A stretch of 64,000 bases of DNA from Antedon mediterranea (GCF_964355755.1 NC_092680.1:16811045-16875044), one strand, 5' to 3'. Positions 1 through 63,499 are shown, numbered from the stretch's first letter. Numbers and translations: made by a program. Notes: generated by a model from the letters alone, not told the origin.

Positions 1-32
1 AATAATAATGCAATATAAACAGTAAAACTTAC

Positions 33-51
33 CACTTTCGTCAGATGACAT
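33..51 (-). CDS. First coding exon of a third NLR paralog (NLR-0), gene continues off the left edge
   Basis: Exon 73-33 reads ttttcag|AAGATTCTAAAACATTAAAAGT-ATG TCA TCT GAC GAA AGT G|gtaagt (MSSDES). It is homologous to the start exons of the two NLR genes (MISSEEG at 8153, MSESMSAEEE at 18122). An upstream 5'UTR exon ends at 849 and is paralogous to the one ending at 8440. Confidence 0.7.
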
Positions 52-2060
52 ACTTTTAATGTTTTAGAATCTTCTGAAAAAAAAGTTTAAAATGGGAAGA
101 AAAAAAAACTACATTATTGTATTTACTTCAGAAGAGAACGGGATATATCGTTAACCAATTTAAACATTTTGAAATTAAAAAATGATTATAACTAGACATT
201 ATTTTAGTATCTAATTGCCACATACTGATAATTTGTACCCCATTAGTGAAAACATTTGATTATTGATTTAACATCATTAATAGGTCAAAGTACGTTCATA
301 TTGTAGACACACTGACTATTTCCACGCACAAGTATTATAGGCCACAGTGGTTCATTGCAGTAGATTCTCTTACGGTACTATGTCTAGCGTTAACATAACG
401 TAATCGAACAACAACAGGCAATGAATAGTACTTAGGCCTACATGGTGCATAGTTGGATAAAGGTTGTAGTCAAAAACCAGAAACTGTATGTTGTGTTTAT
501 TGTCTCTGTACGGGAATCTGATGTTTATTGTCTGTTAAATATTCCTAATTCAGAAGTAACTGAAAAAAAATTCTACGTTCATGATTTGAAATATCGAAAA
601 ATTATCGAATTTAAATTATCAACAATCAAATAATAGTTATAGAATAGAATAGAAACTGCAAACTTAGGCTCATAATAATATAAAATGAATTATTGGAAAT
701 AGATTAAATCCAAAATGGGTCTGAGATCTGGAATGAATGCGGTTTATATACTCTAAACTACTAAGCTACTAATAACAACTGTTTACTCTGAGGTATACAT
801 GTTGTTGTTTCAAACGGTACGTATTCTTAGCATACAAACTTAACTTGCCTTTGTGAAACAAGCACCGTTGTCCTAATGGCGGTTATCTCCTTCTCTGGTG
901 CTGGTCGAACAATGAATATTATGATTAGGTTTTTGTCATTATACATTTCCTAATGGTGACGTTGAATATGGTTATTCCATTTTTCTATTATTGTAAACGT
1001 ATGTGTGCAGTCAAGTGCAAGAATAGAACCCCTCTTGTGAAATGCCTACATTTTAAGCTAAATTGTTAGTGTGAAGGTGAACCCATACCAACAACGGATG
1101 ATGTTACCATTTATTGTTGAACTGGAAATTACTGAATCAAACGTAACCTTTACGTGTTCAAGTCAAATAAGTCAAGTAACATTTTGTAAATTAGTACAAT
1201 AATGTAAGATGATAAGTCTGTCGTGCAATCACCATCATCAGTTTCATGAAATAAAATAATAATAATAATAAAACATCAGATACCAAAAATGTAGGCCTAC
1301 TTCTTCGAAGTAGCAGTGTGCTTTCGATCCCAATGTGTTTGCTGAAGTGTTGGTTACATGGGTCAATTAAAAACCAGTGCATAAAAAACTACAATGATGT
1401 CATCACACTACAAAGAAAATTAAATTCAACAAGATACAATATTGTGATTGTATTTATTGAAAATATTATTAATGATTTGCGATATACATTTATACTTAAT
1501 ACTTATTAAAGTGATACACTAATACTTTATTATTATTCATCAAACCAATATATTTTGTGATTATTAAAAGTATATAAAACATAAATAACACAACCATTTC
1601 ATCATTGTATTGTATTATTATTTCATACTCATCTAACAACGAGAAACTGATTGTTCGCTTGGATTGTTCACTTAAATTTACACTTAATTGTAATAAATGT
1701 TACAACTTTCTTTAGGCAGGTCATTTTATTTATTTATGTATAAGTAATAAGTAAAAATTAGATGCCTTATATCTATATTTTCAGACGTTTAATTGCTAAC
1801 CATTCAATCGCCAATCCCATTCCATTTATAATAAAGTTATTCTTTTACTTTTACTGCTATCCCTATCATTAATTGTTTTAAAACATTTCTTTTACATTTT
1901 TTCATTATTAATCCGGTTCATTAAAATGTTCGTTAAATGCCAAGTATATAACTTATTCATGACAACATGGTATTAATTATTCTTCAAGTCCACACTACTT
2001 ATAGATTGAAAAAATAATCGAGTAAGTTATACTCTATCCCATTTACGGCAAGAATTATTA

Positions 2061-5000
2061 CTACTCGATTGTCCCCTGGTAATACATTGTTAACCTCGAT
2101 GGTTGCACTATTAACATGCCTTTTGAGGGGCTGGAGGAGACAACAAACGGGATTGTTTTACTGTTCTGGAAAACTATATTCATTGTTTTGTTGTTTGTTA
2201 TTTCTTTCTTGACGTCTACATATACTCCTCTTCTAGAAAACTTACTTGAAATGATTTGTTTTATATCATTTGGTAAAGCACAGTTATAGAGGTTAAAGTA
2301 CTCCAGCTTTGGAGCAATGTCTACTAAAGAGATTAATTGGGAAGGATTCACATGTTTAAGATTGTTAGTACTCATTAAAAGGATGTTTAATTTTGCTGTT
2401 ACTCGTCTATCAATACACTCTATAATCATATTGTCAATAACAGCACCTGATAAATTACATTTACGCATATTAAGGACTTTCAGTTCAGGAGATATAGCAA
2501 ATAGTAAAGCGAGTGAACATCCACTGATTTCACTTAGGTTATTACCACTAAGATCCAAACCTTTCAATTTTAACGACACTTTATTGTCTACACATTGGCT
2601 AACCATGTCATTGATAATAACACCTGATAAACCACTTTCTTCGACTGTAAGCGTGTCAAGCTCGGAGAAAGTGGTAAACATAGAAGCCATGGAATAACCA
2701 GTAACGTTAGTAAGACAATTCCCATTTATGTTGAGGTCTCTCAATTTGAATTGATTTGTTGTTTTAATTAACTTCTCCATCATATCATTCAGTATGTGTC
2801 CTGATAACCTACAAAAGCTTATGTCAAGAAATAACACCTGATATACAGAACCTAATAATGACGCCAATAATGTACCGTTTATAGTACTTAAGTTATTGCC
2901 ACTGAGATTAAGATACATAAGATCCATTTGTACATTATTGCAATGCTGTACGGGCATGACATTAGTAATTTGCATTTGTCGTCTTGACAAATCATTTGCA
3001 ATTGCATTAATAATGCCACCAGATAGATGACAACTTGAGATTTTAAAATGCTGAAGTTTGGAAGCAATTGTCATAATATAGGCCAGAGACGTGCCTTTAA
3101 TTGTGCTTAAATTGTTGTCATAGAGAATCAACTTTTTTAATTCCAGTGAGACTTTTCCAGAAAAAGATTTTGCCATATCATTGAACACTTGACCAGACAG
3201 CCTACAGTTGTGCATATCGAGAACTTCTAATTTTGGAGCCACAACCATTAACGAAGCCAACGAAGAACCATCGAGATTGTTCAAAACATTATCGCTGATG
3301 TCAAGTTTCTCTAATAGCAATTTTTGTCCACTACTGCAACACTTTTTGATAATATTATTTATAATTTCACCTGATATACTGCATCTAACCATGCTCATAA
3401 CTTTAAGTGTAGGGTTGAGAATTAAGAAGGAAGCCAATAATGAGCTGTCAATGCTGCTGAGGCTGCAACCAATGATAACCAGTTCTTTCAAGGGTAATTT
3501 ACAACCCACACTAGTAATATCTTTTGACATTTCATTAACTACTTTACTCGTAACAGATTCGTCTAATCTTAACGTTTTAAGTTTCGGAGAATTACACAAC
3601 AAGTGAATTAAAAGTGAAGGAGTTACAGAGCATTTCTTCAGACTGAAATTATTTATATCATATTTGAAATTTAGTTTCTTACATTCTAAGTTTAGATGCT
3701 CGATAACATTATCATCACACGTTTCAGAAACTCTTCTTAGAAGCTTATCTTGATCTGGTACAGCGATCATAATATGAGCTAGCATTATGCCCTTTTCTTC
3801 AGATGAACTTTCATTACAAATAACTTTAATAATGGTATCAGTTTCTGCAAAACAAGCTTGTAGTGGTTCAGAAAATACCGGACCTACACCGCGTATGTTT
3901 CTTAACAATTCAATAAATTTGTAATCTTCGCTTACATCTTGGATCATGTGATGAACGCATTTCATTAGGGACACACGTACTCTATCAATATTCGGCTTTA
4001 TTGACAAATGTGTCATGCTTGGGTGAGCACTGAGTGCATTCACTACATCAACTCTGTGCTCCTCTTTCACAATACTTAAATGTGTTATTAAGCTGCGATA
4101 TGTTGTTAAACTATTTGTTATCCAATGATTCAAGAACGTATCAGCCTTAGAACCTAAGAAGCCAATTGCAAACTCTCTTGCAACCTTCAGGTGATCATTG
4201 TCTATTAAACTATCCCATTCACATTCATTCGGAAGTAAATCGGTTTCTGTATTCCTTGTTTCTTTCATTGTACTATGTTGACTCTCTCCAGTCTGTAGAC
4301 TTACTTTATAGAAGTAGAATCCTACTAATGCTTCTACTAATAACTTATGAGGAGCTGTAAAAGTTTCTTCAAAACCGTATCTGGAATTTGGTAAATCTTT
4401 GTACACAAACCCTAATTGTAATGCCAATGTGACCATGTCGTTACTACCCTTTAGCTTCTTTTTGTTGACATATAGCTGGTTGAGTGTAAGACCTTCGTAT
4501 AGTCCTCTTCCTAACACAAGCATTGCGTCTACTAATTGATTCGGTGTATCTTTAAATTCCTCTATTTTCTGACCATTCTTTTCGTCTGTGTTGTATTGAT
4601 TTAAAACACTTCGAAATATTTCTTCAAATAAAACTGATTTTTCGGTTGGAAGATAGGTATTTTCTTCCCACATACCACACACTAACAGAAGCAGCCTTGG
4701 ATTTCTACACATTAAACGCACTTCTCGATGTCTAATAGGTCGGTATCTTTTACGATCAAGTTCTGTATTAAGGGATTCTCCTAAATACGATGCTCCTAAA
4801 TACGAAAAGTGTTTCGTAATATATTTATTTATGTTTTCCCCGTTAAAGCCTTTTACTTTAACATGCACATCACTTTCTTTAATGTATTGATCTATGTTTT
4901 CTGAGCGTGAGGTAAGTATCACTACACAATTTTCCAATTCTTCTCCTTTAAACAAACCTATTGGATCATTAACACCGATCTTTAAATCTTCCAATCCATC

Positions 5001-8000
5001 TAAAAGCAAGACTATTTCATTGTCATGATTGAGAAGAAATCTTTCAATCATTCTTGAATTTTCTGGAAGGCCAGTCTTCAAACTGAAATGCTTTAGTTTG
5101 ATGCGTTTTACAATTACATCTAAGATGTCTTCACCAGCTTCCATATCTCTGACATCAACAACAAATAATATTTTGCCTTGGAAAGTGTGATCTGTTTCGT
5201 TCGCCCATCTGTACGACAGATATCTGAGTAATGTTGTCTTTCCTATACCACCTTCTCCATTTATAAAAACTTTGCAAGCAGGTGTCGACTTAATAAGTGA
5301 TGAAAGCTCGTCTAATTGTATCGGGCTGGGACCTGTTTGGTTTACTTTCATCAGGTCAAGATCTGTAAACATATTCGCCATGTCTCCTTTAAATAGTGAC
5401 TTCTTAAATTCAGGTGCAGACTCATTGGTTTTGATGCAAAATTGTCTTTGATGTTTAAGAAGGTATTCTCTAATGATATCATCTGAAAATATTCATTCAG
5501 AAGTAAAACATATTATTTTATTCATTTAAAGAAAGGCAAAAATATGATTAGTATTTTAAAATACTTTTTTGTATATATTATGTAGGCCTAAATAAAACAA
5601 ATATCTACAATTGGTCTTAATATTGATGTAAACGTTAAATACCTTTGTCTCTCTTTTGTCTTCCAGATTCGGTTGAGTTCATTGCTTCGTCTACTAAAAC
5701 CAACAACATTGTTTCGTTTAACTATATACAATTTCATTAATATTGTACACATTTAAAAATTCAATTACCTTTAACAATTTTGTTTAATTCGCTGTTAGTT
5801 AATTAATAACCAATCACAGAACATATGGGCGTGTTGAATGCTTGTATTGGTTGGTTTAAACTAGTTTGCTAGGTAAAACACAAATAATATATAGCAAGGG
5901 ATTTATTTAACGAGTTTTTGTGGACAGAAGATGAAATTAAAACAAGTATACAATATACATTATTATAAAGTATTTACAATGTTAATTAGTATAAAAAGAG
6001 ATACAAATTATGTTATTTAGATATTACAATAACAATATAGAATAGAATAAAACGTTCTTAAATATATAAAAAGTACAGAGTACAGATAATTCCATGACTG
6101 CATAAAAAAGTAACAACACGTAAGAACATTAAGCTTGCATTTCCCTACCTTGGTAACTAAACCTTTGACTTGGTATTTGTGATACAGGGCTCATTTCTTC
6201 ACCTATTAAAACAAAACAAGTTATGTGAAACAGAATTGTCCAATTTCTTTGTAGTGTATTAATAATATATAAGAAATAGTATAATGTATTTATTATCACA
6301 GCAGTTATTAATAATTTTTTATTGCTTATTTATTATATAGGACAATATATTAGGTTAAAGATGTATTGTTCCTTTAACTAATTCCAAAAAAATAAAAAAT
6401 AAAAGATTTCGAAAAAACGTGGGTCATTTTGAAGTATCATAATAGTTATTAACTATCACCAAAAATGTTTCGACAAAAAAAAATAATTTAACTGAAATAC
6501 AGACGTTTTATACTCTATATGCATAATCATAAAACTTCCTCATGATCTGTGTGAAAATACCTTCTTAACCGTGACGAGTTGTATACAATCCTAATTTAGC
6601 ATATGCATAATGCGTACTAATTTGTTTGAAATCTTTGTTTACTTTTGCTCGTGACGATTTTCCAGTTGAAATGTAATCAAACTAATTTACCTGTTAATTA
6701 CGTAAACTTGTTTTGGCTCGAATTTTCGACTTAAAGTGAATAACTTTAATATTACTTTGATATGGCCACTTTAAATTTAGAATATTTTGACCTTCATTTT
6801 TGTGTGTTTCAATGGACAATACATCTTTAAGATTTATTTGTACGTATAAATAGATGTATATCATACCATAATGAATAAAACACTTCTCAGCTGAATCCAT
6901 TCCATTTTGCCGTAAGATTTGTCTAAATGCTTCAACGTTATCTTCTTTCAGTTTTCCTTGTTTCTCAAGATCCGTAATTAAACTCCAACTGTCTTTATAC
7001 TGCTTAAGTCCCGGAAAGTTACATATTGTATCAAAGGTATTTATATTGGCATCAGTAAGTACTTTGCCGAAATTTAATATATTGATTCTGTGCTTTGTGA
7101 ATGATGTCACATGGACTTTATCAATATTTTTGAAGTGGTACAATTTCTCCTTAATTCTCGACTTAAAACCAGATTGCTTAGTTATTTTGACAGTGTCATA
7201 CAAAAGTGTCAGATTTGTACGATTTAATTGTGCAGGCCCAACTAAATGAGACAACAATTCTGTCACATTAGTTGCTCTTTCCAAAGTCTGATTATCGTCG
7301 ACAATGTCTTTGTATAACACTTTTAACATTCCAAGATATCTAAGGCCATCATACCATGTTGCAAAGTCCACAATCAGCTGCCTGAATTCATCCTCTGAAA
7401 GATCTACATTTTAATAACAGTATCGTATCAGCTATCTTTATGATTTAAAAATATCCTTATTGTATTACTTGGTAATCAGTGATATCAACTATAGTTGTGT
7501 CACATTTCCTCTTCATTGTCACGTTTGACGTTTGTGTAAGATTTTTATTGAATAGATAGATCCTTCTTTCTTTTCAATTTGTCTTTACTTTGGTGTAATT
7601 ATACTACTATACTATACTCAATTAACAGTCAAGGTTAGGTTATTATTTAATTAAAACAATTTTTCTTAGTTTAATAACTATAGTACTCAAACAAGTATTA
7701 ATATAATTTATTAGCAAAGTCATTACAGGGTCATCACTGGGGTCATCATTTTCTATTCCGGAATAAAACATAATACATTTTGGACGTGATCATCTGCAGG
7801 TACTATATTGTCAGTATCAACTTATCTCAGCACTGGTCCTTGTTGTTTAATATTATATTAGGCCTATTTGTAGTATATTTTTTCTGTTATTTACCTTGGT
7901 TTGATTGCACTTTGGATCTCGACGACTCCGGCTTATCTTCACCATCGCCATCATCATCTTCACTACCTATAGAATCAAGATATATTATAACATTTGAATT

Positions 8001-8153
8001 AATAGGGATGATCAATAATTATATAATACTCTTACGATTTGGATCATCTACTGTACTACGGTACTGATTTAATACCTATTTCTCCACACCACTATTATCA
8101 AATAAGAAACAAAATAATATTTATAACTTACCACCTTCTTCAGATGATATCAT
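2061..8153 (-). CDS. NLR-A: NOD-like receptor, acidic N-terminus + tandem DED-like domains + NACHT + LRR, about 1385 aa, apparently intact
   Basis: Coding exons 8153-8132, 7966-7895, 7403-6867, 6202-6149, 5693-5643 and 5482-2061 are all GT-AG, all introns are phase 1, and the frame is continuous (4158 nt). Motifs: Walker A GEGGIGKTT, Walker B LLLDGLEDL, sensor-1 ILTSR, HD1 CRNP, WHD FTAPHKLLVE, then LxxLxLSxNxL / LxxLxMxxCxL repeats. Exon 7403-6867 encodes two helical death-fold-like units (DEFRQLIVDF..., SFTKHRINILNFG...). Confidence 0.88.
6359..6826. mobile_element. Non-autonomous TTAA-flanked DNA transposon (Kolobok-like MITE) in an NLR-A intron
   Basis: ttaa|AGATGTATTGTTCC ... GGACAATACATCT|ttaa gives a TIR with TTAA on both sides. 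Elements with related ends occur at about 41050-41325, 49203-49537 and 50209-50532. Confidence 0.7.
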
Positions 8154-9469
8154 TTCAGTGTTTTAAAGTCCTCTGAAAGAGAATTAAAAAGGCAAATATA
8201 ATTACGGTGTACACTTTTAAAATGTAGGCCTATAGTAATTTAATAAGTTCATAAATTAATAATGTTAGAATAGGCTCATGTACGCCTACAGTATACGTGC
8301 ATACAATAGCCGATGTATAGTCACCGACACATCAAAATGGTCTCTTTATTGATCTATGTAGGCCTATTTTGGTATCTATCAAAATCTCATAATATAAATA
8401 TTTATATATAAACGTAGTCACTCGACATTCAACACTTACCTTTGTGAATTGTAATCAGGCGCAGTAATAAAATGGCGTTTTTCCTTCTTGGATATGGATC
8501 GATTAATAACAATAATACATTTCCGGTGGTTGGCGTTGAATATGATTATTCCATTTTTGTATCATTGTAAATGGAGGTGAGAAAAGGTAAGAACAAAATC
8601 AATGGGATTCTCGGGGGCTGTCTAATAACTGATAGTAATAATTAACTATAATATGGTATTATTATAACTTTTTATTCGTTTGAAAGTGAACTTACACAAA
8701 AACAATAATACTCGATTTGTTCAATTTTAAGTGACTGCTTGTTAACAATTAGATAATGATAAGATTTCTTAAGCGCACTTATCAACATTCAAACCCGAAG
8801 GATACTAAACTGTAAAGCTAAAAAACTACCAAAACCTCACATAACCGATTCCGTTGACCAGCAACGTGTTTTCGATGCGATATGTCTGTTGAAATGTTAG
8901 TAATATTTGGAAAAATGTAAAGTACACTAGAGAAAAATTTCAAGAAATAAACATGTATTAATGTCATGTATTTATTTGTATTTGTATTTAATGATTTGCA
9001 ATTTTTAGGCCTACATTGCTAACAAGTGATAAAGTCTTATTAATAATATATAAATACAGATAATCAATTTGATGAAGCCCACTAAGGTCTGTTTATCTTA
9101 TAATTAAAATAATACACAACAAAATAATATAATTTTATATCAACTACATGTACACAGGTGATGTTAAGGAGAAATAACAAATACAGTAATGAAGAAAATT
9201 AACATCTACTGATTTTGCTTACGATTACCACAAACCAGAGCCGACCTGAATATTTCATTTGAACATTTTGCAATAACAAGTTCACTAAACAGAACCCAAT
9301 CACTAAAATAAAAAAGTATGTGGTAATAATTGCTTAGTTCTCTGATAGGCCTAGGATTATATATTTTAGTCTTTCATCGTCAATCAATAATGTTATTCCC
9401 ACTGAAATCAAGTGAGGGTAATATTAACTTATCTCCCCGTTTTGATAACTCGATTACAATATCATTAAT

Positions 9470-10310
9470 AATTTCACCGGGTAGAGTGCAATTACTCAAA
9501 TTTAACTCTGTATTGGACGAGGAAATGCTTATCAAGGAAGCTAACGATGAACCATCAAGCTGACTGAGGTTATTCCCACTTAAACTAAGTGAACGTAATT
9601 TTAACTTTTCTCCACGTTTTGATAAATTATTTGTCGTAGCATTAACAATATCACCAGACAGAGTACAGTCACTCAAATTTAACTCTGTATCGGACGAGGA
9701 AATGCTTATCAAGGAAGCTAACGATGAACCATCAAGCTGACTGAGGTTATTCCCACTTAAACTAAGTGAACGTAATTTTAACTTTTCTCCACGTTTTGAT
9801 AAATTATTTGTCGTAGCATTAACAATATCACCAGACAGAGTACAGTCACTCAAATTTAACTCTGTATCGGACGAGGAAATGCTTACCAATGAAGCTAACG
9901 AAGAACCATCAAGCTGACTGAGGTTATTCCCACTTAAACTAAGTGAACGTAATTTTAACTTTTCTCCACGTTTTGATAAATTATTTGTCGTAGCATTAAC
10001 AATATCACCAGACAGAGTACAGTCACTCAAATTTAACTCTGTATCGGACGAGGAAATGCTTACCAATGAAGCTAACGAAGAACCATCAAGCTGACTAAGG
10101 TTATTCTCACTTAAATTAAGTGAACGTAATTTTAACTTTTCTCCACGTTTTGATAAATCATTTGTCATAGCATTAATAATGTCTCCAGACAGAGTACAGT
10201 CACTAACATTTAACTCTGTATTGAACGAGGAAATGCTTATCAAGGAAGCTAACGATGAACCATCAAGCTGACTAAGGTTATTTCCATTAAAATTAAGTGA
10301 ACATAATTCT
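9470..10310 (-). repeat. Coding tandem repeat, 177-bp unit (59 aa, two LRRs), about 5 copies, three nearly identical
   Basis: acgatgaaccatcaagctgactgaggttattcccac occurs at 9544 and 9721, with near copies at about 9898, 10075 and 10252. Protein unit: LSGNNLSQLDGSSLASLVSISSSDTELNLSDCTLSGDIVNATTNNLSKRGEKLKLRSLS. Confidence 0.95.
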
Positions 10311-10313
10311 AAC

Positions 10314-10361
10314 TTCTCCCCTGGTTTCGATAAATAGTTCTCCCCTGGTTTCGATAAATAG
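10314..10361 (-). repeat. Perfect 24-bp in-frame tandem duplication in the LRR region
   Basis: ttctcccctggtttcgataaatag x2, giving NYLSKPGENYLSKPGE. Confidence 0.95.
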
Positions 10362-12227
10362 TTTGCCACAACGTTTATAATCTCACCAGATAGAGCACAG
10401 TCACTACAATCTGCATGGTTGGAAGTAATGCTTATTAAGAGAGCTAAAAAAAAACCATCCACTTGGCTAAGGTTATTCCTACTGATATTAAACGAGTACA
10501 ATCCTCTGTGCGTTAATAACCCTGTAGCCACATTATTAATAATCTCACCGGAGAGAGTACAGTTACTAAAATTAAAACTGTTAATGCTCCTTAAGGAACC
10601 TAAAGTAAAGCCATTAATCTGGCTAAGGTTATTCCCACTCAGATTAAGTGATCCTAAATGTATGTTCATTTCTTGATTTGAAATATAATTTGTCATCGCA
10701 TTAATAATCTCACCAGATAGATTGCAGTCACTGCATTTAAAATCTCCATGGTACAAGGAAGTGCTTATCAAAGAAGCTAAAGAAGAACCATCAACTTGGC
10801 TAAGATTATTGCCACTTAAATTAAGTGTATGGAAATCGAATCTGACTTGTTTTGAGATTAAACCATTTGCCATAGCATTAATAATCTGACCAGACAACGT
10901 ACAGTAACTAACATCAATCTTTGCAGGGAAGGGGATATATTGGCTTAATAAGGAAGCTAAAGAAGAACCATCCACCAGGCTAAGGTTATTCCCACTCAAA
11001 TTGAGTTTGTAGAATGTTAACTTCACTCCTCGTTTTAATAAATCATTTGCCATAGAATTGAAAATCTCACTAGACAGAGTACAATAACTTACATCAAAGT
11101 CTGTAGTCGAGTTACTGCTTATTAAGGAAGCTAAAGAACCACCATCTACCTGGCTAAGGTTATTCCTACTTAAATTAATTAATTGAAATTTGAACTTCAC
11201 TCCTCGTTTTAATAAATCATTTGTCATAGCATTAATAATCTCACCAGAGAGATTACAATCACTAACATCAATTTCAAACCAGATAGGCCTAATGCTTATT
11301 AAGGAAACTAAAGAAGAAACATCAACCTGACTAAGGTTATTCCCACTCAAACAGAGTGAAGATAACCCTATAATTTTTCCAGGTAAAGATTGTACCATAT
11401 CATTGAGCACATGACCTGACAGTTTACAGTTGCGCATGTCTATACCGTCTAATTTTGGAGCTATAACCATCAGCGAAGCAAACGAAGAACCACAAAGATT
11501 TTCCAATAGATTATCGCTTATGTTAAGGTATTCTAATAGCAATTTATGTCCACTACAACAACTACTACAACACTTGTTAATCATATTATTCATAAATTCA
11601 CCCGATATACTGCAGTTGATCATATCCAAACCTGTAAGTTTTGGGGTGAGCATTAAGAAAGAAGCGAATAAACAGCCATCAATGTTGCCAAGGTTGCAAT
11701 CATAGATAAACAGTTCTTCCAAGGCTAATTTACAACCCCTACTAGTGACTTCTTTGAGCATGTCATGTACTGCATCACTTTTAATGCATTTGTTTAAAGT
11801 CAAACGTGCAAGTCTTGGAGAATACCTCAACAAGTGAATTAAAAACAAAGAAGTTGCACGACTTTGTTCCAAAGCAAAATGTTATATCGTACTTGATATT
11901 TAGTTTCTGACATTCTGAGTTTAGATGCTCAATAACATCATCATCGCACGTTTCAGGAACCATTTTCAGAAGTTTACCTTGCTTTGGTACAGCGATCATA
12001 ATATGAGCTAGCATTATGCCCTTTTCTTCTAATGACTTTTCATTACAAATGATTTCAACAAGTTTTTCAGTTTCTGTAAAACAATCCTGTAATTGTTTAG
12101 AAAATACAGGACCTATGCCGTGTATATTTCTTAAAAGTTCTAAAAAATTGTAATCTTCTTTTAGATCTGGAATCATGTAATGAATGCATCTCATTAGTGA
12201 TGCACATATTTTATCAATTTGCGGTTT

Positions 12228-13709
12228 TCTATATATAAATTTACGTAAGGGCAAAATTCGGTAAATCGCGCCTTACTTTTAGAATTTTTACTCGATGGTA
12301 TGTAAAGTTGGTTCGTACTTTCGGTACTGATTTTAACCACCTGATTTAACCCTGTTTACTAATTAAATTAAGTTAGATAATTAGTTATTGACGATTAAAA
12401 CGAATTTAGGTTCAAAGATTTGCCCCAAATAGGGGTGTTTTCCGATCGTGGTATACACTGTCTAATGGATGTCCATCTTGAAAAATACCCGCCACAAAAA
12501 TGCGAGGAGGCTTCGCATTTTTCTATCTCCTCCTACGATAATTGTTTTTAATAGCTGAAAACCGGTTGAACAGTTCGAGTACAGCATCATAATGTTGAAG
12601 ACAGGCCGATTTTCTTTAAAATATACTATTTTGATACATTTAATATACGTTTTTACAAATGTATTGATTTGTGATGAATGGAACATTCCAAATTATTTGG
12701 TTTAACCATACAGGTATAGATTTAGATTTATGGGCCTCCTTGGAGAATAAACATAAATAGTATTGCAATGCTGTACAATACTGTTAAGGTATTAACCACT
12801 TTTGATCGCAATTTGAATCGCAAATGTCTTACTGTGAGTGTCGGTACTGTTAGATGTAATATAAAAATATATACAAATAAACTTTATTACTGTGAGTGTG
12901 GGTAGGCCCTACTGTTAGATTATAAACATATAATATACAAATAAACATTCCAAATTATTTGGTTTAACCATAGAGGTATAGATTTAGATTTATGGGCCCC
13001 CTTGGAGAATAAACATAAATAGTATTGCAATGCTGTACAATACTGTTAAGGTATTACAAATAAACTTTATTACTGTGAGTGTGGGTAGGCCCTACTGTTA
13101 GATTATAAACATATAATATACAAATAAATAAACGTTATTACTGACAGTTGCTTCTCAACGTTTGTATTAATTAATAATTTAAAACTATATAAACGTCGTA
13201 GTGGTGTATCGTTACATGTACTTTACTATTTCAATCGACTATGACAGTGAGAGTTTTAACAAAGTACCGTATTAAATCGTAAATGTTTTACTGTATTTAG
13301 TGGTATATTATTTATAGGCCTATAAAACATTAAAAACAATATTTCGTTACTGAGTGGTGGATAAGAATATATTTTAAAATGTTTCCTCTTTGTACCTATC
13401 TTCTTCCCCCATCCCTCAACCCTTAATGTTACATACAAAACACAAATTGGGTTTGTTTAAATGAGTCCAAATAAAAAATTTTGACTCATTTTGTTTCTCT
13501 CTCGGAAGTAATTCTCAGGGTGCTAATTTTGGTTGATTACATAAATCATTGTGTATATTTATTCGTTTCTGTAAACGACAATGTATTATAGTCCTGCGGT
13601 ACGTACATTTGAAATCTCCATTTTTTTCTCGCTGGAAATACTGTGTATTCGAGAACCATCTGTGGGCACGACCTAGATGGTACGCGAGCGAAGCGAGCGT
13701 GCCATCTAG
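12228..13709 (+). mobile_element. Non-autonomous Helitron (1482 bp) inserted in the NLR-B coding exon
   Basis: 5' end TCTATATATAAAT and 3' end ...GCCATCTAG. A GC-rich terminal hairpin is present (CTAGATGGTACGC / GCGTGCCATCTAG). There is no target-site duplication (T|T site), and exact removal restores the reading frame. Internal direct duplications lie at about 12682-12793 / 12944-13055 and 12872-12945 / 13055-13127. Confidence 0.88.
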
Positions 13710-15478
13710 TATTGATAAATTTGACATGCTCAGATAAGCACTAAGTGCATTTACTACAGCAATTCTGTATTCCTCTTTTACGATGCGTAATTGAGTAGTT
13801 AAGCTGCGATATGTTGTTAAACTATTTGTTATCCAATGATTCAAGAATTTATCAGCCTTCGAGCCTAAGAAGCCAATTGTAAACTCCCTTGCAACCTTCA
13901 AGTAATCATTGTCTATTATACTAGTACGCCATTCGTATTCCTCCAACAGTGGGTCGTTTTCTATATTCCCTCTGTGTTGCATTTGTGCACATTGTTGACT
14001 TTCAGCGGTCTGTAGACTTACTTTAGAAAAATAAAATCCTACTAACGCCTCTACCAATAACTTATGAGGAGCTGCAAAAGTTTCTTCAAACCCATATTTG
14101 GAATGTGGTGAATCTTGATACACAAACCCCAATTTTAAAGCCAATGTGACTGCATCTTTACTTCCCTTTAAGCTTCTTTTGTTGATATACAACTGGTTGG
14201 TTTTGAGACTTTCATAAAACCCTCTTCCTAGTACAAGAATTGCGTCAATTAATTCGTTTGGTGTACTTTCTAAGTTATGAATTTTCTGATATTTTCCATC
14301 TTTGATGTATTGATTTAAAATACTTCGAAATACTTCTTCAAATAGAGCTGCCTTTTCTGTTGGAATTTCTTGTTTTTCTTCCCAAATGATACAAATGGAG
14401 AGAAGAAGCATTGGATTTTTTACCATTGAAAGTACTTCCCAATGTTCGATTCCATCTTTATGAAGCTCTTCAATTAAAGATTCTCCTAAATTTGGTGCTT
14501 CAAAATATTGAAAGTGCTTTGTAATGTATTTCTCTATGTTATTTCTATCAAATCCTTTAACTTTAACATGAAAATCACTTGCTTTAATGTATTCATCTAT
14601 ATTTTCTGACCGTGAAGTAAGTATCACGACACAATGTTCCATTTCTTCTCCTTTGATCAGATTTATCGGGTCATCAACTCCAATCTTTAATTCGTCTAAC
14701 CCATCCAAAAACAAAACTATTTCATTTTCATGATCAAGGATGAATTTTTTAATTATTCTTGGATTTGCTGGAAGTTCAGTCTTCAAACTGAAATGCTTTA
14801 ATTTTATATGTTTTATCATTACATCTAGGATATCTTCACCACTGTTTATGTCTCTGATATGAACAAGAAATACTATTTTGCCTTGGAAAGTAAGATCTGT
14901 TTTCTTCGCCCATCCATAAGACAGATATCTGAGTAATGTTGTCTTTCCAATACCACCTTCGCCATCTATAAGAACTTTGCAAGCAGGTTTAGTCTTGATA
15001 ACAGATAAAAGCTCACCTAGTTTAATCGGGTTTGAATCAATTTTGTTTTGCTTTTCTTTCATCAGGTCAAGATCGGTGAACATATAAGCCATGTCCACCT
15101 TATAGCGTGACTGCATAATTGCTGGTGTAAACTCATTTGTTTTGATGCAACGCTTCCTTTGTTGTTCAAAGAGGTACTCTCGAATAATATCATCTGAAAA
15201 TGTTCATCAAAAGCATTTCATTACTATATTTGTTTAAAAATACATTTAAAATTTACATTTATAAGGTTTTTGACATATTTTTCAGGAATAGAAATATGTG
15301 GTATGCTTATTCAACATTTCAAGAAATACGAGCTAAATGGTAAGTTATAATCAAATTTATTTTAAAAATTGATAAACTTACCTTTACTTCTGATCTTTTG
15401 CCGTTTATGTTGAGATGGACCCATTTCATTGCCTGGAACGAAAGAATATTACATGTTTTATATTTGAATTTAGGCCAT

Positions 15479-15509
<31 letters not shown>

Positions 15510-18331
15510 ATACTTTATTTTAACACGGAAAAGCTTGTGTCAATCACAAGTCTCTTATTATAAATACGGATAAAAAAAACGTTGTTGCAAGAAACTGAAT
15601 GTAAATATGCCCATGTACATTTATTACATAACAAAATTGTATAAACAATATACAATAGTCAAGTTTAAGGTTCTTGATGCTACAAACTAGCCTAGGTGAT
15701 ATCTCTAACATTTACACAATTACATTAACATTTTTTTATAATTTAGTTTGACTTAAACTTGTTATTTCGAAATGTCAAACCTCAAAAGTATACGACGAAA
15801 AAGGTTAAAAAATTGTCCCATTGTGACAATAAAGAAGTAGGCATGTATGCGTTTTGTTCATGACGTAATTTGCTCCATCGAACGCAATTCAGAGATGCTA
15901 TGCTTAATGCATTTTATTATCTGAATTTTGGTTGCTTATTTTAGGCCTATACATTGTGCATTGCTTTATATCTTAGTTTTGATAATTTTTTTATTTCATC
16001 TAATTTATAGTGGACCTCTTAATGTCAGTTTTTTTGTAATAATACAAAATTTAGGTAATATAATCTGTGTGTGGAAAAATGTATTCTTTTATTATTACAC
16101 CTTTTGTATTATAAATTAAATTGTAGCATACCATCAATAAAACACTTCTCAGCCACGTCCATTCCATTTTTCCGTAAAACCTCCCTAAATGCTTCTATGT
16201 TTTCTTCTTTCAGTATCCCTTGTGTTTCAAGGTCCGCAATCAAGCTCCAACTGTCTTTATATTTCTTAAGTCCTAGTAGAAAGTTGTATCTTCCATCAAG
16301 AAACTCTATATTGGATTCAGTAAGTTCTTTGCCGAAATTTAGAATATTTATTCTGTATTTTGTGAACGATGTTACCTGAAGTTTATCAATATTCTGGAAG
16401 TGATACAATTTCTCTTTAATTGTTGACGTAAAACCAGATTGGTTAGTTACTTTCACTGTGTCGTACAGAATTGTAAGTTTTTTTTCGTTCAATATTCCAG
16501 GCCCAACCAAATGAGATAGCAATTCTGTTACATTCGATGCTCTTTGCAGATGATTTACGTCAACAATGTCTCTAAATAAAACTTTTAGCATTCCAAGAAG
16601 TCCACGTCCATCACACCATGTTGCAAGGTCCATAACTAACTGCCTGAATTCATCCTTTGAGAGATCTACAGTTAAATAATAATACATTATACGGTAAGTT
16701 GGTTTTAACTTGGCATTCATGGTGAAATGTCACGTCACAAAAATTTAAATATAATAATGATCATAACAAAAAAAAATGAAAATAAAAAGATCTTCCTAAG
16801 CAGGAAATTAAAGTAAATGCATATACATTACACCAAACTCATATTCATTACTTTTTAGTGCAATAAACCCTAATCACACACACAGTAGGTCTCTTAACAT
16901 GATGGAGTTTTATGATGGTGTTGTGTACTGTAAGGGGGAAAGGTGTGCACTCTGAGAATGCCCTCTAGCTATTATCGATATTGTACCGTTTAGTGTAATG
17001 TTGTTTCCCTGGATCCGCCATTTATATGTAACCATTTTAAATTATTAATTAGCGAACAGTTACAAGTTACAAACATATTTATATTATCACTCTGTTAATC
17101 AATCAATTAGTAGCCGCTGGCAATAATATTGATATCTTTATTCAGGAGGTACCCTTAGTTTCAGTGTTTCCCTCATATATTTACCTTGGTCTGGTTGGCA
17201 TATGGATCTCGACGATGACGCCTTATCTCCATCATCGTCATCTTCACTACCTGTGTACAGATGTGATAAATTATTTAGCATAATAAACGATGAATGAAAT
17301 GTTTTATCGGTTTGTAATAATAAATTAAGAAGCTGTTGTGAAAGAAATAATGAAACTCCCTAGAAGGTATTTATCATTTCGTAATTTAGCATTGGTTTGA
17401 TGAAAATTATATTCATCGCAATATATATGATATATTTTGTATTACTGAAAATACAATATTTCTTTTTTAAGTTGGCCTAATTTCAGTTGCTTATCGTTTA
17501 CATTAGGCTAATGGAGAGCATAAGTTAATAATGTTGCTTTACATGGGAATTTGTTTCCGCGGAACGATAAACAAGAATTTAAACATTAGGATTAGGCATG
17601 CGCATACTTTCTGACGTAAACTGTTCCAGAAATTTAATTACGCAGATTTAAAACTTTAAAAAATATTACTAAAGCAACTCAGTCTATCAACTCAAATGTA
17701 CGGTACTATCATTGTCTAACGATTTCTTATAACCTACAAAAGTCTTAAAATATTAGGACTACTGTTTTATCTTTTCTGTTATTACATTCATTTGTTTGCA
17801 ATCTTATCGACGCCGACTCATCTCCATCATCATCATCATCTTCACTACCTAGATAAAGATGAATCATAATTAGACCATTCTAGGTAATTACTGATGAACT
17901 CAATTTAAAGTGGTAATATGACATTTTAAAATATTTTTATAGGCCTAGTTTTCCGGGGTCACGCAGCTTGGATTTAACTATGACCTGATTATTTATACAT
18001 TCCACATTGTTTAACTTTCAACCGGATTAAAATGCTACTATATTTCCATGTACAATATAAATAATAGCCAACATAAAATAGATTAATTTACCCTCTTCTT
18101 CAGCTGACATGCTTTCAGACATGTTGTAGAATCTTCTAAAAACAGATTATAAAGAGAAATGTTTATTAAAATTACTTTGAAGGTGACTTTCAAAATTGAA
18201 AATCGAAAATGTATGATTAGGCTATACATTATTTTATTATGTATGATTATACATTGTATTTAATTAAAATTTGAACTTTGTACTCCACTGAATACGTATA
18301 CGTTTATACAATAGATAAGTAGGAATAAGCA

Positions 18332-20068: not shown

Positions 20069-21149
20069 GCTCAACTAAACTCGTACCCACTTTTCTGTAA
20101 ATAAACAGTTTGTTTTTAATTATTTTGAATTAATTACAAAATATAAATGCAATCAAAAATGTGTTATATTAAGCAATAGAAAACATGGTTGAATATTCTA
20201 CGCTGCTTTATCGCAAAGGGGCAGCACAAAATAGGTAACAAGCACAGCACTGATAAATTGGCCTATCTACACAACCAACCCATATGTTAATTAAAAAGTC
20301 TGTATTTATTGTCTTTTTTTTAGTCCACCCGTTGGGCTCACAAAAATATTTGGGAGCTTAAGTATTATACGTATGAAACGCTATATGTGTCAAAATTAAT
20401 TAATATGACAATGTTAACTTTACATGAGAGAGTACAGCTATTAATAACCAATATATTTTGTCTAATTAATATGTTGCTTATACTGAGAAAGGTATCAAAT
20501 ATAACAATTTATTTGTTTCGATTTTGTTGACACCATTTATTTTTATTTCCATATATTCATGTGCAAATTCAAAGTTATGTTATATTTGTTACGGAACACA
20601 TAACGTTGAATATTAATTTATTACAATTATGAATTTAACAATTGTCAATGCGTGAATGTGACCCACACAAAACTCTACAGGGGTGAGAAAAGATGTTTAA
20701 ATAATTCTACAAAAGTGATTTTCGATTTCCTTCAATTCAGTATTTGAAAGATACAATACACAATATGCCTGTTCCACGTAATGAATGTTTACTTAAAATA
20801 ATTTGAAAAACAATATAGTAATCTATCTTAATTATAATAATACAATATACAACAATTAAATCTAATATATGCATTTTAATATTTGGGATTACTATCTATG
20901 AAGGAATGTGAAAATATTTACTATTTACAAAAAAAATGTTTCATTTTGAGAGAAAAAAAAATAATTTATTTTACAACCACAACAATGATGAAGTATTTTG
21001 AGGTAAAGTACTACTTTTGTACTTAACAAACAAGCTAACTTTAATTACGATAACGTTAATTAATGTTAATTAACCTTTGATATTCAAATTCATTTTCTGT
21101 AGAGCACAAAGTTTTCCAAATCGAATACGCCAAACAAATACAATTCTAA

Positions 21150-21278
21150 AGCTCTGTCTACACTATCAAACTTTTTGACAAAAAATATATGTCCCTACCA
21201 TATTTGGGCATATCACTACCATATTTGGCTACATAACATTTGTTTTTGTCTAACTAGTTTGATAGTGTAGACAGTGCT
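21150..21278. mobile_element. MITE, AGCTCTGTCTACACTATCAAAC TIR family (PIF/Harbinger-like)
   Basis: TIR agctctgtctacactatcaaac / gtttgatagtgtagacagtgct with TA(A)-rich flanks. Confidence 0.85.
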
Positions 21279-21749
21279 TTAGTTAGTGCTAATGTTTTCA
21301 AATAGCATTACGATGTTTGTGGTTGTTTAGAAACAAGATGGCGCCTGTTGTTCAGCAACAAGGCCTGCAAGACAGTTGGCCAAACTCTGTAACACTCTGA
21401 ATCAAACAAAGTTCATCTGATTCAAAACACATTAGCAATTGGTAGCACCCACTTTAAAAAGCATCAAAATATTACTGTTCAACTTAATATTATATGTACG
21501 ATTATTTAAAAATTAAACAACTGAATTGATTGAAGTCCAACATTTTAATGAATATTACCTCAAAGGAACACTGAACTCAAAGGAACACTGAACACTCAAA
21601 GAATACATCAAGTACAGATTTGTAAATAGTAATTTTCTATAAACCAATTGTTTCTATAGTATAAATTATCATTTCTAGATTATTAATAGATCTAATTATA
21701 ACATGAAAGAAATAGAAATACTATAAAAATACGACTTTACACTGATTAA

Positions 21750-21882
21750 AGCCCTGTCTACACTATCAAATTTTATGTGACAAAAAAATGTGATGTCCAT
21801 ATATGGACTTGATGATGTCATATCACTACCATATTTGGGCACAAGGTTTTTGTCAAACTAGTTTGATAATGTAGACAGAGCT
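21750..21882. mobile_element. MITE, same family
   Basis: agccctgtctacactatcaaa ... gtttgataatgtagacagagct. Confidence 0.85.
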
Positions 21883-22080
21883 TTACACTTAAGAATATTC
21901 AGCTATTTAATAGTAAACGTGTATGCTTTCACCAATCTTAAATCTTCTATTTTGTAATTAATGATAATTGATCAACATTCACAAAGTCAAAAAAAAAAAC
22001 CTGCCTGCAGTCTTTTTCAAATCAGAATCAATCAATCAGAATCACAGAATTTATCGTGATTACAATGATTATAAATATTA

Positions 22081-42700: not shown

Positions 42701-45700
42701 ACACTCATTTGCGATACTCGATTGCGACACTCGATTGCGACACTCGATTGCGACACTCGATTGTGGTACTCATTTGTGTCGCATTTATTTGTGACACTCA
42801 ATTGTGAGAGTATGGTACTCACATAAAACACATTCATTATCAATTTCTGATTCTCACCTGATAAACATCTTCTGTTGTATTATTTTTTCTAATTTTCACG
42901 ATTATGCTTTTACGATTTGGGAGAAGAATCCTCATGTCCACTTCGCTAACTGGTTGCTTTTTACTCTATAATAAAAATCATAAATTATAAACCACTCAAA
43001 TGTTAAATGTTCTTTTTTTTTAAGCTCTGTCTACACTATCAAACTTTATGTGACAAAATAATTTGATGTGCCCATATATGGACATATTTGGTCAAATCAC
43101 TCTTTTTTTTTTGTCAAACTAGTTTGATAGTGTAGACAGATCTTTAGAGTATAACTGAACTGGTACTATATTGTATTACTGTACAGTATGTTAAACAGTA
43201 ACCTGTATTGCTACAGTTCAATTCCATGACAGTGTTCTTACAGTCAACTTTTATATAAAGCAAACTATACATAATAAAATAATAATAAACAGTATTTATA
43301 TAGCGCCTAATGGATCACTGACCCCTCTAGGTGCTTTACATTAGACCCTAACTAATGGTAATAAACTATCCCCCGCCGGACACCATTCCGGTATTTCTTA
43401 GTCGAGGTTTCAGGGATGGAGACAATCAATAATGTGAAAAAAAATGTAACTATAAGCTTAACTATGCTTAACTAAGGTAAAACTATCCCCTGAGTCAAGG
43501 TTTCGGGGCCAGAATTAAGAATAGATATACATAATGGTAAACGCATATTACATCTACACATGTTCAATAGTCTGTGATTGTACCATGTAGTAGGAGTAAT
43601 TCACCTTAATAATAAATTTATACATTATCGGGATGTGTTTTTTTTCATACCAAAGATATTTTTTTTAATTGCACCTTAGAGAGGCCGCAGGATGACTCAA
43701 AATATCGGGGTGGGAAAAAAAAAAATCCTAAATACATTGTGCATAACACTGTATCATAAAATTTGCAAAGGATAATTCACAAAAACTGAAAACAAAATGT
43801 TTAAAACAATTATAAGACAGTAGGATAATTGGGTACTTCACTTTGGTATGTTTAATTAATTGAATCTAAACTATTTCAACCGAACAGAAATATTAATGAA
43901 AAATGAAATTGTTATATGTATATATATTCAACATCATAATAAGATGTTTTCTACATGCAAGTCTGTACTTAACCTTAAGTTGGCATAATATTCAAGACTG
44001 AAGTAGTCTACTTGTGAATGTGGAGAAGTAAGGAAGTCAATGACCAGAGAAAGACCAAATTAAAAACATGATGTTTTCAATACCAAGCACCAGAACAAGA
44101 GCATATGACATACATTATGCCTGGGTTTGATCACAGATTAGGACCCTTTTCAGATAATGTTTTTTCAGCTATAGGCGCTTGACCTTTGACAAGATCGCCT
44201 TAAATTTATAATTTAAAACTACGATACTTAGTATTGTATATTCAGGAATAGCCGCTCCATAGTCTCTTTGCTTTTCTTCCTTATATCTTATTCTTATTAA
44301 CTCAAAATTATTTTTACTAACAAACATTACTATTTGTATGCTTAGGCTAGGCTAGTGTGTAAAACATTATTGACATAATATCATTATACATCCACATACA
44401 GTACAACTCTTCTTAACAATTTTTTCAATCTTCTAAAAGTCGTAGTTAGTCATGTCTCGGGTCACATTCTATGGTCACCGTACAGATAGGCTACTACATC
44501 AGTACTTCTATGAATGGATGACTAGTTGGTGACAAGAACGCTAGTTGGTCATACCCAGTACCGTTTTGATTTTACGATCTTTCAGGAAACCATCTCACAA
44601 CGTTATTGGCTGGCAATCACTTTTGTTTGCCTTTAAAAACAATTAAAATGTATACGTACCTCCTCATATTTATTTTCACTTGACTTCAAGAACTCCTGGA
44701 TATAGTCGGACTCTGAAATTATTCTTACCGAACAAACTGAAAATTACAAACAAATATTTAAATGCCATTGGTAATAATTAGATAGGAATAAAAATCCCAT
44801 ATTAATATCAAGAATAAGTAATTTTTTATAATATAAAATTTATTATTTTGTGTTTTGTACATAGTTTATAAGACACTGAAACAATATGAACCCAAAAAAC
44901 AATTGGCATATAATTTTAAATCGGTTTAAATAATTACAAACTGTAGTTTCTGCAGTAATTTCCTGAGAATAAGTTTATCAAACCAATAATCAACATAATG
45001 ATTTTCCTATTTAAAGGATTATGAAATTAGTAATTCATAATTTTCTATAGATTTTATACTGACTGACTGAGTACATTTATTAAAAATGTCAGCATCATAC
45101 ACAGCGATAAAAAAAAATAATAGTGGAATGAAGACGTTGTGTTTATGTTTTTTCAAAGCCACAAATGACAATACTTCAGAGCAACAATGCAATGCCAGTT
45201 GTACAGTACATTAAACAGACATACAGCACACAGGTAGCCGGCATTGTATAGTACTTCAGTATAATAATTCATAATGATAATTTATCATATTATTATTAGG
45301 GAACTTCCTCTACCAAACCAAACACTATTAAGCTCTGTCTACACTATCAAACTTTATTATGTGACAAAACAATGTGATTATCACTGCCATTTAAGCATAC
45401 AGTATCACTACCATGTTGGGAACATTACATTTTTTTGTCAAACGACAGTTTAGTTAGATAATGTAAACAGAACATTAGAAGATCTCCATAATGCTACTAT
45501 TAAATTGTGCCTTTTACTTTTAATGGCTCAGGGGTCTATAGAATTAATTTAGACATCTGTTAATAAGTATAAACGTATGTTACTTAAATTATGTATCAAC
45601 TAGGGGTTAAATATTTGATAACGTCACACTGAAATATCGAAAACCACAGTAAACATGAAAAGATCAGAGGTCACAGATTATAAATTTACAATTTTCGATA

Positions 45701-56174: not shown

Positions 56175-56630
56175 ACCAACCACAAATAAACTTGCTGTGG
56201 AAATTAAAACTCAACCATATAGTGACCGAATGAAATTTATGAAACTGCCATCATTAGCATTTCGAAGAAAGAGGTCTTGCTGCTTACAGATTTTTAGAAT
56301 GATACAAAAGTATGATAATGTTAATCCGGGTGTCTTTTTTGAATTAGTACCTTCTACTGTAACTAGAGGCCACAATTTTAAAATTAAAAAAGTTCATAGT
56401 AAATCGAAACACAGACAGAAATTCTTTTCAATATCTGCAGTAAATGATTGGAATAGTTTGCCATATCATATAGTAAATGCATCCTCTATAAATAATTTTA
56501 AAACCCATCTTGAAACACACTGGAAAACCCACAACCTAAAGTTTGAGCCATTATAACCAAGATGTTCAAAGAGGGACTCACAAACCTTAACAGGTTTATA
56601 GTCTAAAGGTCAAGGTAAATCAAGGTAAAC
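56175..56630 (+). mobile_element. 5'-truncated CR1/L2-group LINE fragment (ORF2 C-terminus + 3' tail)
   Basis: ORF 56197-56556 has the motifs YSDRMK..KLPSLAFRR, TRGH, FFS..VNDWNSLP and FKTHLE, typical of CR1-group ORF2 ends. Short tandem tail caaggtaaat-caaggtaaac. Confidence 0.85.
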
Positions 56631-63228: not shown

Positions 63229-63382
63229 TTGTTATCATACAGAAGTTGCCATCAAACCCTATCATCAAAATGAAATTAATTTGTTATACTTATGTATTGA
63301 TTAACTAATAAAATAACTGGAATTAATTAATAATTAATTTATCAAGTTATTGGATTATTGATATTTTTTTTATTCAGACTAA

Positions 63383-63499
63383 ACCTCTGTCTACACTATC
63401 AAACGTGACAAAAAAAATGTGATGTGCCCATACAGTATATGGACATGATGTCATATCACACTTTTTTGTTCAAACTGGTTTGATAGTTAAGACAGAACT
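63383..63499. mobile_element. MITE, AGCTCTGTCTACAC family
   Basis: ctctgtctacactatcaaac ... gtttgatagttaagacagaact, with a CAGTA insertion in the core. Confidence 0.75.

What the first reader, a model, noticed from the sequence alone, without database searches (positions are those of the whole stretch)
1..18122. Tandem cluster of tandem-DED/NACHT/LRR receptors: a possible adaptor-free NLR-to-caspase-8 system
Seen: at least three head-to-tail paralogs, and in the two complete ones splicing joins the 'separate' ORFs into one protein with two death-fold-like units before NACHT-LRR. Known: tandem DEDs are the hallmark of caspase-8/10 and cFLIP prodomains, whereas vertebrate NLRs use CARD, PYD or BIR. 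DED-bearing NLRs are reported in some invertebrates but are poorly characterised. Inference: oligomerised receptors could nucleate DED filaments and recruit a caspase-8-like protease directly, without FADD or ASC.
Basis: partly seen in the sequence, partly recalled or inferred. Interest (0 to 1): 0.8.

Follow-up and report, generated by a model that had tools for sequence, protein, structure and literature searches.

The report
Feather-star tandem-DED immune receptor cluster
A feather star has a cluster of three related immune-sensor genes, only one of them shown to be intact, whose front end is predicted to fold like the docking part of caspase-8; the same part sits on many other feather-star signalling proteins, which likely lets these sensors call in cell-death or immune enzymes directly.

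Summary
Partly confirmed. The window is crinoid DNA (Antedon mediterranea by source names). Gene B (8153-2061, minus strand) is an intact 1384-aa DED-DED-NACHT-LRR receptor. One spliced contig joins the end of the DED exon to the NACHT exon. The exon is predicted to fold as a tandem DED (Z 17.3 to caspase-8; PYD 8.0, DD 7.6). The second 'complete' paralog is broken by a 1482-bp Helitron-like insert and a frameshift. The third paralog's likely product is a 323-aa DED-only truncation. DED-NACHT receptors and the adaptor-free caspase idea have been in print since 2008. What my searches did not find in print: this module is a crinoid expansion (153 hits; 30 of 30 looked up are crinoid). It also sits on ROCO, TIR, RIG-I-like, Rel, kinase and USP gene models, and on a caspase-8 paralog whose prodomain nests among NLR modules. 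Best reading: homotypic signalling within this module family, rather than specifically to canonical caspase-8. No binding is shown.

The parts
8132..8153 (-). Gene B coding exon 1 (start codon at 8153)
   Evidence: matches the start of P0001
7895..7966 (-). Gene B exon 2, acidic/Ser-rich leader, phase 1-1
6867..7403 (-). Gene B tandem-DED exon (178 codons, phase 1-1)
   Evidence: Pfam; model; fold searches; hhalign; splice
6149..6202 (-). Gene B linker mini-exon, phase 1-1
   Evidence: joints in contig 5 of X1
5643..5690 (-). Gene B linker mini-exon, phase 1-1
   Evidence: joints in contig 5 of X1
2061..5482 (-). Gene B single NACHT-LRR exon, intact, to the stop codon
   Evidence: Pfam NACHT 59.5 bits, LRR_1 38.1 bits; no indel listed in this exon in 4 runs; no stop among 29 listed variants
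18092..18122 (-). Gene A coding exon 1
17786..17848 (-). Gene A acidic leader exon (predicted)
   Evidence: paralogous to gene B exon 2 (blastn)
17185..17250 (-). Gene A second acidic leader exon (predicted)
   Evidence: blastn
16132..16665 (-). Gene A tandem-DED exon, phase 1-1, 72% aa identity to gene B's, dN/dS 0.23
15382..15432 (-). Gene A linker mini-exon (predicted)
13710..15193 (-). Gene A NACHT exon, native part up to the insert
   Evidence: Pfam NACHT 62.3 bits; tblastn 67.5%
12228..13709 (+). 1482-bp insert with 5' TC, 3' CTAG and a terminal hairpin, between two T; Helitron-like, with no long ORF; gene A's frame stops inside it at 13515
   Evidence: (hairpin z -3.45); Helitron criteria recalled
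11853..12227 (-). Gene A piece after the insert, ending at a frameshift near 11880
   Evidence: frame -3, then -1
9380..11881 (-). Gene A LRR-coding frame, cut off from the NACHT by the insert and the frameshift
33..51 (-). Gene C coding exon 1; the rest lies beyond the window edge. It likely encodes P0002, a 323-aa tandem-DED protein without Walker A
   Evidence: assignment inferred from the matching N-terminus and equal contig length

Best explanation
Gene B is a spliced DED-DED-NACHT-LRR gene whose first domain is predicted to fold as a caspase-8-like tandem DED, and it likely signals by oligomerising and then recruiting crinoid proteins that carry the same family of tandem-DED module. Shown: exon structure, one spliced contig, NACHT and LRR domains. 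Predicted: the fold. Inferred from the NLR family: LRR-gated ADP/ATP exchange and oligomerisation that clusters the DED pairs. Inferred from the module's distribution: the clustered DEDs seed homotypic assemblies with module-bearing effectors, first of all caspases whose prodomain was grafted from the NLR-type module, possibly also kinase, Rel or USP fusions. Genes A and C are broken duplicates; if expressed, their DED-bearing, LRR-less products would tune this system.
For: The fold is tandem DED (Z 17.3, rmsd 2.5 A, 167 residues aligned; best PYD 8.0, DD 7.6, MDA5 CARD 5.4). Profile match to the caspase-8 prodomain set: 98.5%, 175 columns. The module is on 29 of 45 crinoid NACHT proteins, with up to 5 copies. 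Among 136 module-bearing proteins scanned with Pfam (tallied by hand): 22 Roc/COR, 12 NACHT, 6 TIR, 3 B-box/NHL, 2 caspase, 2 LRR-only, 1 each of RIG-I-like, Rel, kinase, USP, ZU5, fibrinogen, ubiquitin, HEPN and ENTH, and 80 with only DED or nothing informative. Anneissia caspase P0070 has His-Gly and QACQR motifs and two modules. Its second module is 75% identical to an NLR module and falls in the same starred clade as gene B (11 rows, 100/97), while its catalytic domain is 66% identical to canonical Anneissia caspase-8. Antedon caspases P0212, P0207 and P0213 group with an Antedon NLR module, P0022 (100/96). One clade for all caspase prodomains is rejected (p-AU 0.004). The exon is phase 1-1 and under purifying selection between A and B.
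Against: The only caspase found with gene B's module subtype is from Anneissia; none was found in Antedon among 69 hits. The fusion partners are NCBI gene models that I could not check; P0070 could join a neighbouring NLR 5' end to a caspase gene by mis-annotation. The DED2 alpha2 Phe and both RxDL motifs are absent from the module, so filament formation of the caspase-8 type is not assured. Gene B's Walker B reads DGLED, in 1 of 45 against DGLDE in 32 of 45. The AU test group was named after the trees were seen, and a simple model (LG+G4) was used.
Confidence: 0.5

Rival explanations
1. One reading: the receptor nucleates a DED filament that directly recruits the species' canonical caspase-8, without an adaptor.
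For: Same fold as caspase-8 tDED, collinear over 175 columns. Antedon has a canonical DED-DED-DD-caspase with QACQG (P0204). Its own DED2 has Pro where the caspase-8 consensus has Phe, so the receptor's missing Phe does not exclude pairing. The idea is in print for amphioxus (PMC2575513).
Against: Only 15% identity between the profiles' first sequences. Canonical caspase-8 prodomains form their own branch (100/98) and score at most 46.9 bits per stretch on the module profile, against 139-189 for P0070 and 151 for P0156. Crinoids have caspases that carry the NLR-type module itself.
Confidence: 0.2
2. The receptor signals through an adaptor: FADD, or one of the many crinoid proteins made only of tandem-DED modules, bridges it to a caspase, as ASC does in vertebrates.
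For: 80 of 136 scanned module proteins have no other informative Pfam domain, and many have 2-4 modules. The module profile's best PDB sequence hits are FADD DED and cFLIP, though weak (E 0.025-0.04).
Against: Many module-only models may be fragments or truncated receptors like P0002. No adaptor was identified. FADD could not be searched for in this genome.
Confidence: 0.2
3. The tandem DED is a regulatory or bait domain (a decoy for pathogen DED-targeting proteins, or an autoinhibitory part), and the output goes through another route.
For: The module occurs in 0 to 5 copies and is not detected in 16 of 45 family members; it also sits at C-termini of ROCO and TIR proteins. The canonical surface motifs are lost.
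Against: N-terminal death-fold domains are the usual NLR output (PMC3879445, PMC2858798, passages). The exon is conserved (dN/dS 0.23) rather than diversifying. Several module-less models are marked partial.
Confidence: 0.1

Closest known systems
Invertebrate DED-NACHT(-LRR) NLRs of amphioxus, sea urchin and Nematostella (PMC2575513; PMC3879445) and sea cucumber NLRs with one or more death/DED domains (PMC8913654)
   Same: Death-fold N-terminus of the DED type on NACHT-LRR; lineage-specific expansion; direct caspase engagement already proposed (passages).
   Different: Here a packed tandem DED on one phase 1-1 exon, in up to five copies, of a family that my searches found only in crinoids. The passages read do not say whether those receptors have tandem DEDs; their figures and supplements were not seen.
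Caspase-8/10, cFLIP and vFLIP (MC159) tandem-DED prodomains
   Same: Predicted fold and domain packing (Z 13.5-17.3); DED1 keeps a hydrophobic pair (V-L) at the FADD F25-L26 position.
   Different: About 15% identity; no Phe at the DED2 alpha2 patch; RxDL replaced in both DEDs; DED2 helix 3 modelled as a loop; attached to a sensor, not a protease.
DED-bearing RIG-I-like receptors of sea star and lophotrochozoans (PMC8662601; PMC8998645)
   Same: DED grafted onto a sensor by exon gain, with DED-dependent apoptosis hypothesised (passages). A crinoid RLR model with this module exists (P0111).
   Different: Those reports concern RLRs, with a single DED in Patiria; here one tandem module spans many protein classes.
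Vertebrate NLRC4/NOD2-type NLRs that recruit effectors through their own CARD
   Same: NACHT-LRR core (best PDB sequence hit 5irm, E 6.5e-5, recalled as NOD2); adaptor-free recruitment logic (recalled).
   Different: DED pair instead of CARD; no ligand known.

Membership tests
NLR (NACHT-LRR) | NACHT domain | tested here: met
   Pfam PF05729 59.5 bits against a cutoff of 26.7 for gene B; 62.3 for gene A
NLR (NACHT-LRR) | C-terminal LRRs in the same protein | tested here: met
   Gene B: LRR_1 38.1 bits against 20.6, same ORF. Not so for gene A, whose frame stops before the LRRs
NLR (NACHT-LRR) | Walker A and Walker B motifs | tested here: inconclusive
   Walker A GEGGIGKT present. Walker B acidic pair is swapped in gene B (DGLED, 1 of 45; DGLDE 32 of 45); the effect is unknown
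NLR (NACHT-LRR) | N-terminal effector domain spliced into the same mRNA | tested here: met
   One contig of run X1 with a 36-nt overhang into the DED exon
NLR (NACHT-LRR) | Ligand-induced oligomerisation and signalling | not testable with these tools
   Needs experiment
Tandem DED (caspase-8/cFLIP type) | Two packed death-fold helical bundles closest to DED | tested here: met
   Model pLDDT 93.3 with 6 + 5 helices; Z 17.3, rmsd 2.5 A, 167 aligned; ranks 1-12 are all DED entries; Foldseek top ranks caspase-8/cFLIP
Tandem DED (caspase-8/cFLIP type) | Pfam DED above the curated cutoff | tested here: not met
   33.8 and 29.7 bits against 35.9; relatives with several modules pass
Tandem DED (caspase-8/cFLIP type) | alpha2/alpha5 hydrophobic patch Phe on DED2 (cFLIP F114; PMC4558505) | tested here: not met
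   Thr in gene B, Gly in gene A; Gly in 69 of 197 modules, Phe not among the top four residues. Antedon caspase-8 also lacks it (Pro)
Tandem DED (caspase-8/cFLIP type) | E/D-RxDL charged triad | tested here: not met
   QSGF in DED1 opposite RIDL, and MDSA in DED2
Tandem DED (caspase-8/cFLIP type) | Filament formation and caspase recruitment | not testable with these tools
   Needs experiment
Helitron (for the insert; criteria recalled) | 5' TC, 3' CTRR and a 3' hairpin | tested here: met
Helitron (for the insert; criteria recalled) | Insertion between A and T | tested here: not met
   Lies between T and T
Helitron (for the insert; criteria recalled) | Dispersed copies or a Rep/helicase partner in the genome | not testable with these tools
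   No genome held; no second copy in the window

The most novel reading that the evidence does not exclude
Crinoids have rewired innate immunity around one mobile tandem-DED exon. NLR, RIG-I-like, ROCO and TIR sensors plug straight into caspase, kinase, Rel and deubiquitinase effectors through subtype-matched DED filaments, a private DED code that replaces the CARD/PYD/DD adaptors, with truncated copies such as genes A and C acting as FLIP-like dampers or as LRR-less activators.
Probability: 0.3. Interest if true: 0.75.

Novelty: new variant of a known kind. Interest (0 to 1): 0.48.

Why it matters
DED-bearing NLRs have been noted in invertebrate genomes since 2008, but their partners are mostly guessed. 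Crinoids offer candidate matched pairs: receptor modules and caspase prodomains up to 75% identical. That makes the adaptor-free idea testable with two short proteins. If the wider network is real, it shows how exon shuffling of a single death-fold unit can build a whole signalling system, and it supplies divergent tandem DEDs that lack the usual surface motifs for studying DED specificity.

Tried and rejected
Complex prediction of gene B tDED with Antedon caspase-8 tDED gave no answer (score 0.02, mark 0.34; alignments were not used); it is not evidence either way. No whole genome is held, so there is no genome-wide count and no FADD search. Single-sequence search against PDB sequences found no DED. 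The run search listed no holder on record as RNA; X1 is taken as RNA only because its contig skips introns. Reads were laid only on 1-6370, so gene A's expression, and whether its insert and frameshift are fixed or polymorphic, remain open. PYD, CARD and DD identities were rejected by fold score. The insert was rejected as an intron: its minus-strand ends are not GT..AG and the frame still shifts downstream; removal by cryptic splice sites was not excluded. Rfam found nothing. Two look-ups of earlier findings returned nothing. Lange et al. 2011 on Hydra NLRs is not held; I recall that it reports DED-bearing Hydra NLRs, unverified. No further paralog lies in 18300-64000 (tblastn with all proteins held).

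Full report
What is in the sequence. The first 18 kb hold three related minus-strand genes. Gene B has coding exons at 8153-8132, 7966-7895, 7403-6867, 6202-6149, 5690-5643 and 5482-2061, all introns GT-AG and phase 1, giving 1384 aa with no internal stop. A database protein of that length (P0001) matches the window and is named as Antedon mediterranea, a crinoid. Pfam finds NACHT and LRRs in the last exon and two DED stretches in the 537-nt exon, the latter just under the curated cutoff.

Splicing. Four runs were laid on window 1-6370. In X1, one contig skips both downstream introns at the predicted places and ends with 36 letters that do not fit the intron; the 30 printed equal 6868-6897, the end of gene B's DED exon. 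So the DED exon is joined to the NACHT exon in at least one transcript. The basis is a single contig of a run only guessed to be RNA. No indel is listed in the large exon (2 rows of that table were not shown), and the 29 listed substitutions there are 14 synonymous, 15 nonsynonymous and no stop (44 further rows of the table were not shown).

The other two genes are not complete receptors. Gene A's NACHT exon aligns to P0001 in three pieces. A 1482-bp insert occupies 12228-13709; it starts TC, ends CTAG in a hairpin (z -3.45) and sits between two T, which resembles a non-autonomous Helitron by recalled criteria, except for the target site. A frameshift follows near 11880. The spliced frame ends at 807 aa, inside the insert and before any LRR. 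Gene C shows only its first coding exon (51-33). P0002, on a contig of the same length, starts with the same residues, carries the module (76% identical) and ends at 323 aa; its last 19 residues match gene A's DNA in a shifted frame, before Walker A. Its assignment to gene C is inferred. Between A and B, dN/dS is 0.23 in the DED exon, 0.28 in the NACHT part and about 0.5 after the insert; LRRs often evolve faster, so this does not date the decay.

Fold. With a 41-sequence alignment the exon gives a confident model, pLDDT 93.3, with six plus five helices. Foldseek's top ranks are caspase-8 and cFLIP DED assemblies. Against 48,161 chains, caspase-8 tDED scores Z 17.3 (rmsd 2.5 A, 167 aligned), vFLIPs and cFLIP 13.5-14.3, single DEDs 9.6-11.7, PYD-type entries about 8, DD 7.6 and CARD filament entries about 5.5. 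Profile alignment to 29 caspase-8-like proteins is collinear over 175 columns at 98.5%. In that register DED1 keeps a hydrophobic pair, DED2 lacks the alpha2 Phe that PMC4558505 (passages) names as the binding patch, and neither DED has RxDL. Antedon's own caspase-8 also lacks that Phe, so this does not exclude pairing.

The family. The NACHT search gave 52 hits, of which the 44 strongest (E at most 4.6e-47) are all Antedon or Anneissia. Of 45 crinoid NACHT proteins examined, 29 carry the module, one twice and one five times. An unfiltered search of 1.84 billion representatives gave 153 hits, 150 listed. All 30 proteins looked up were crinoid; the rest are unnamed. Of 136 scanned with Pfam, 22 have Roc/COR, 12 NACHT, 6 TIR, 3 B-box/NHL, 2 caspase, 2 LRR only, one each RIG-I-like helicase, Rel, kinase, USP, ZU5, fibrinogen, ubiquitin, HEPN and ENTH, and 80 only DED or nothing informative (my tally; 14 of the 150 were not scanned there). 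These are unverified gene models.

Caspases. The search with P0070's catalytic domain gave 69 hits. Both crinoids have a canonical caspase-8 (P0203, P0204). Anneissia P0070 is 66% identical to P0203 in the catalytic domain but carries two NLR-type modules; P0156 carries one. In a 57-row tree chosen from 197 modules plus 10 caspase prodomains, P0070's second module lies in the starred clade that holds genes A, B and P0002, 75% identical to an NLR module. Three Antedon caspases with weak DED hits group with a different Antedon NLR module. NLR modules need at least four label changes on starred branches, and one clade for all caspase prodomains is rejected (p-AU 0.004; group named after seeing trees, LG+G4). 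This fits repeated exchange of the module between sensors and effectors. No Antedon caspase of gene B's subtype was found; that search is word-limited.

Mechanism. Most likely (0.5) gene B works like other NLRs: LRR-gated nucleotide exchange, oligomerisation, then clustering of its DED pairs to recruit proteins with a compatible module. Only the architecture and splice are shown and the fold predicted; the rest is inferred. Direct use of canonical caspase-8 (0.2), an adaptor step (0.2) and a bait or regulatory role (0.1) remain open.

Prior knowledge. PMC2575513 (passages) reports DED-NACHT in amphioxus, sea urchin and Nematostella, confirms one by cDNA and proposes direct apoptosis without an ASC-like hub. 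PMC3879445, PMC2858798 and PMC5094078 (passages) list DED among NLR N-termini; PMC8913654 (passages) counts 24 sea cucumber NLRs with one or more death/DED domains; PMC8662601 and PMC8998645 (passages) describe DED-RLRs and domain grafting. PMC11508797, PMC12909245 and PMC8195603 (passages) added nothing on crinoid DEDs. Eight searches listed no paper on crinoid NLRs or this module; subscription papers are missing from the library, and I read no figures or supplements, where tandem-DED NLRs may be listed.

Verdict. A real, transcribed tandem-DED NLR, with two broken neighbours. The architecture class and the adaptor-free idea are known; the crinoid-wide mobile module and the grafted caspase prodomain appear undescribed. 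New variant of a known kind, interest 0.48.

Noticed in passing
P0111, P0116, P0153, P0112: Crinoid gene models with the tandem-DED module on a RIG-I-like helicase (at the N-terminus, where CARDs usually are), a Rel/NF-kB protein, a kinase and a USP deubiquitinase.
   Followed up: partly
P0070 / XP_033126911 (Anneissia japonica): Caspase-8 paralog with four DEDs (two NLR-type modules) and NLR-like linker; a real graft or a chimeric gene model.
   Followed up: partly
P0204, P0205, P0209: Antedon caspases with unusual architectures: DED-DED-DD-caspase, a TPR-like N-terminus with caspase, and caspase followed by Roc (no QACxG motif found).
   Followed up: no
window 9380-10300: Gene A's LRR tail holds near-identical tandem LRR units, a recent internal expansion, although the frame is cut off from the NACHT.
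   Followed up: no
window 27540 onward (about 2.5 kb): 35-bp minisatellite array, about 68 overlapping copies listed.
   Followed up: no
window 54610-54939 and 48867-49181, minus: PDZ-coding exon (Pfam) and a probable next exon; resembles sorting nexin 27 by recall, untested.
   Followed up: partly
window 58440-58691, plus: TPR-coding exon of a neighbouring gene (Pfam).
   Followed up: partly
window 56176-56556, plus: 126-codon ORF that looks like the tail of a LINE reverse transcriptase by recall; no Pfam hit.
   Followed up: partly
window 21142-21890, 42991-43150, 48820-48878, 58971-59141, 63350-63430: Dispersed short inverted-repeat family, probably ends of a MITE-type element.
   Followed up: no
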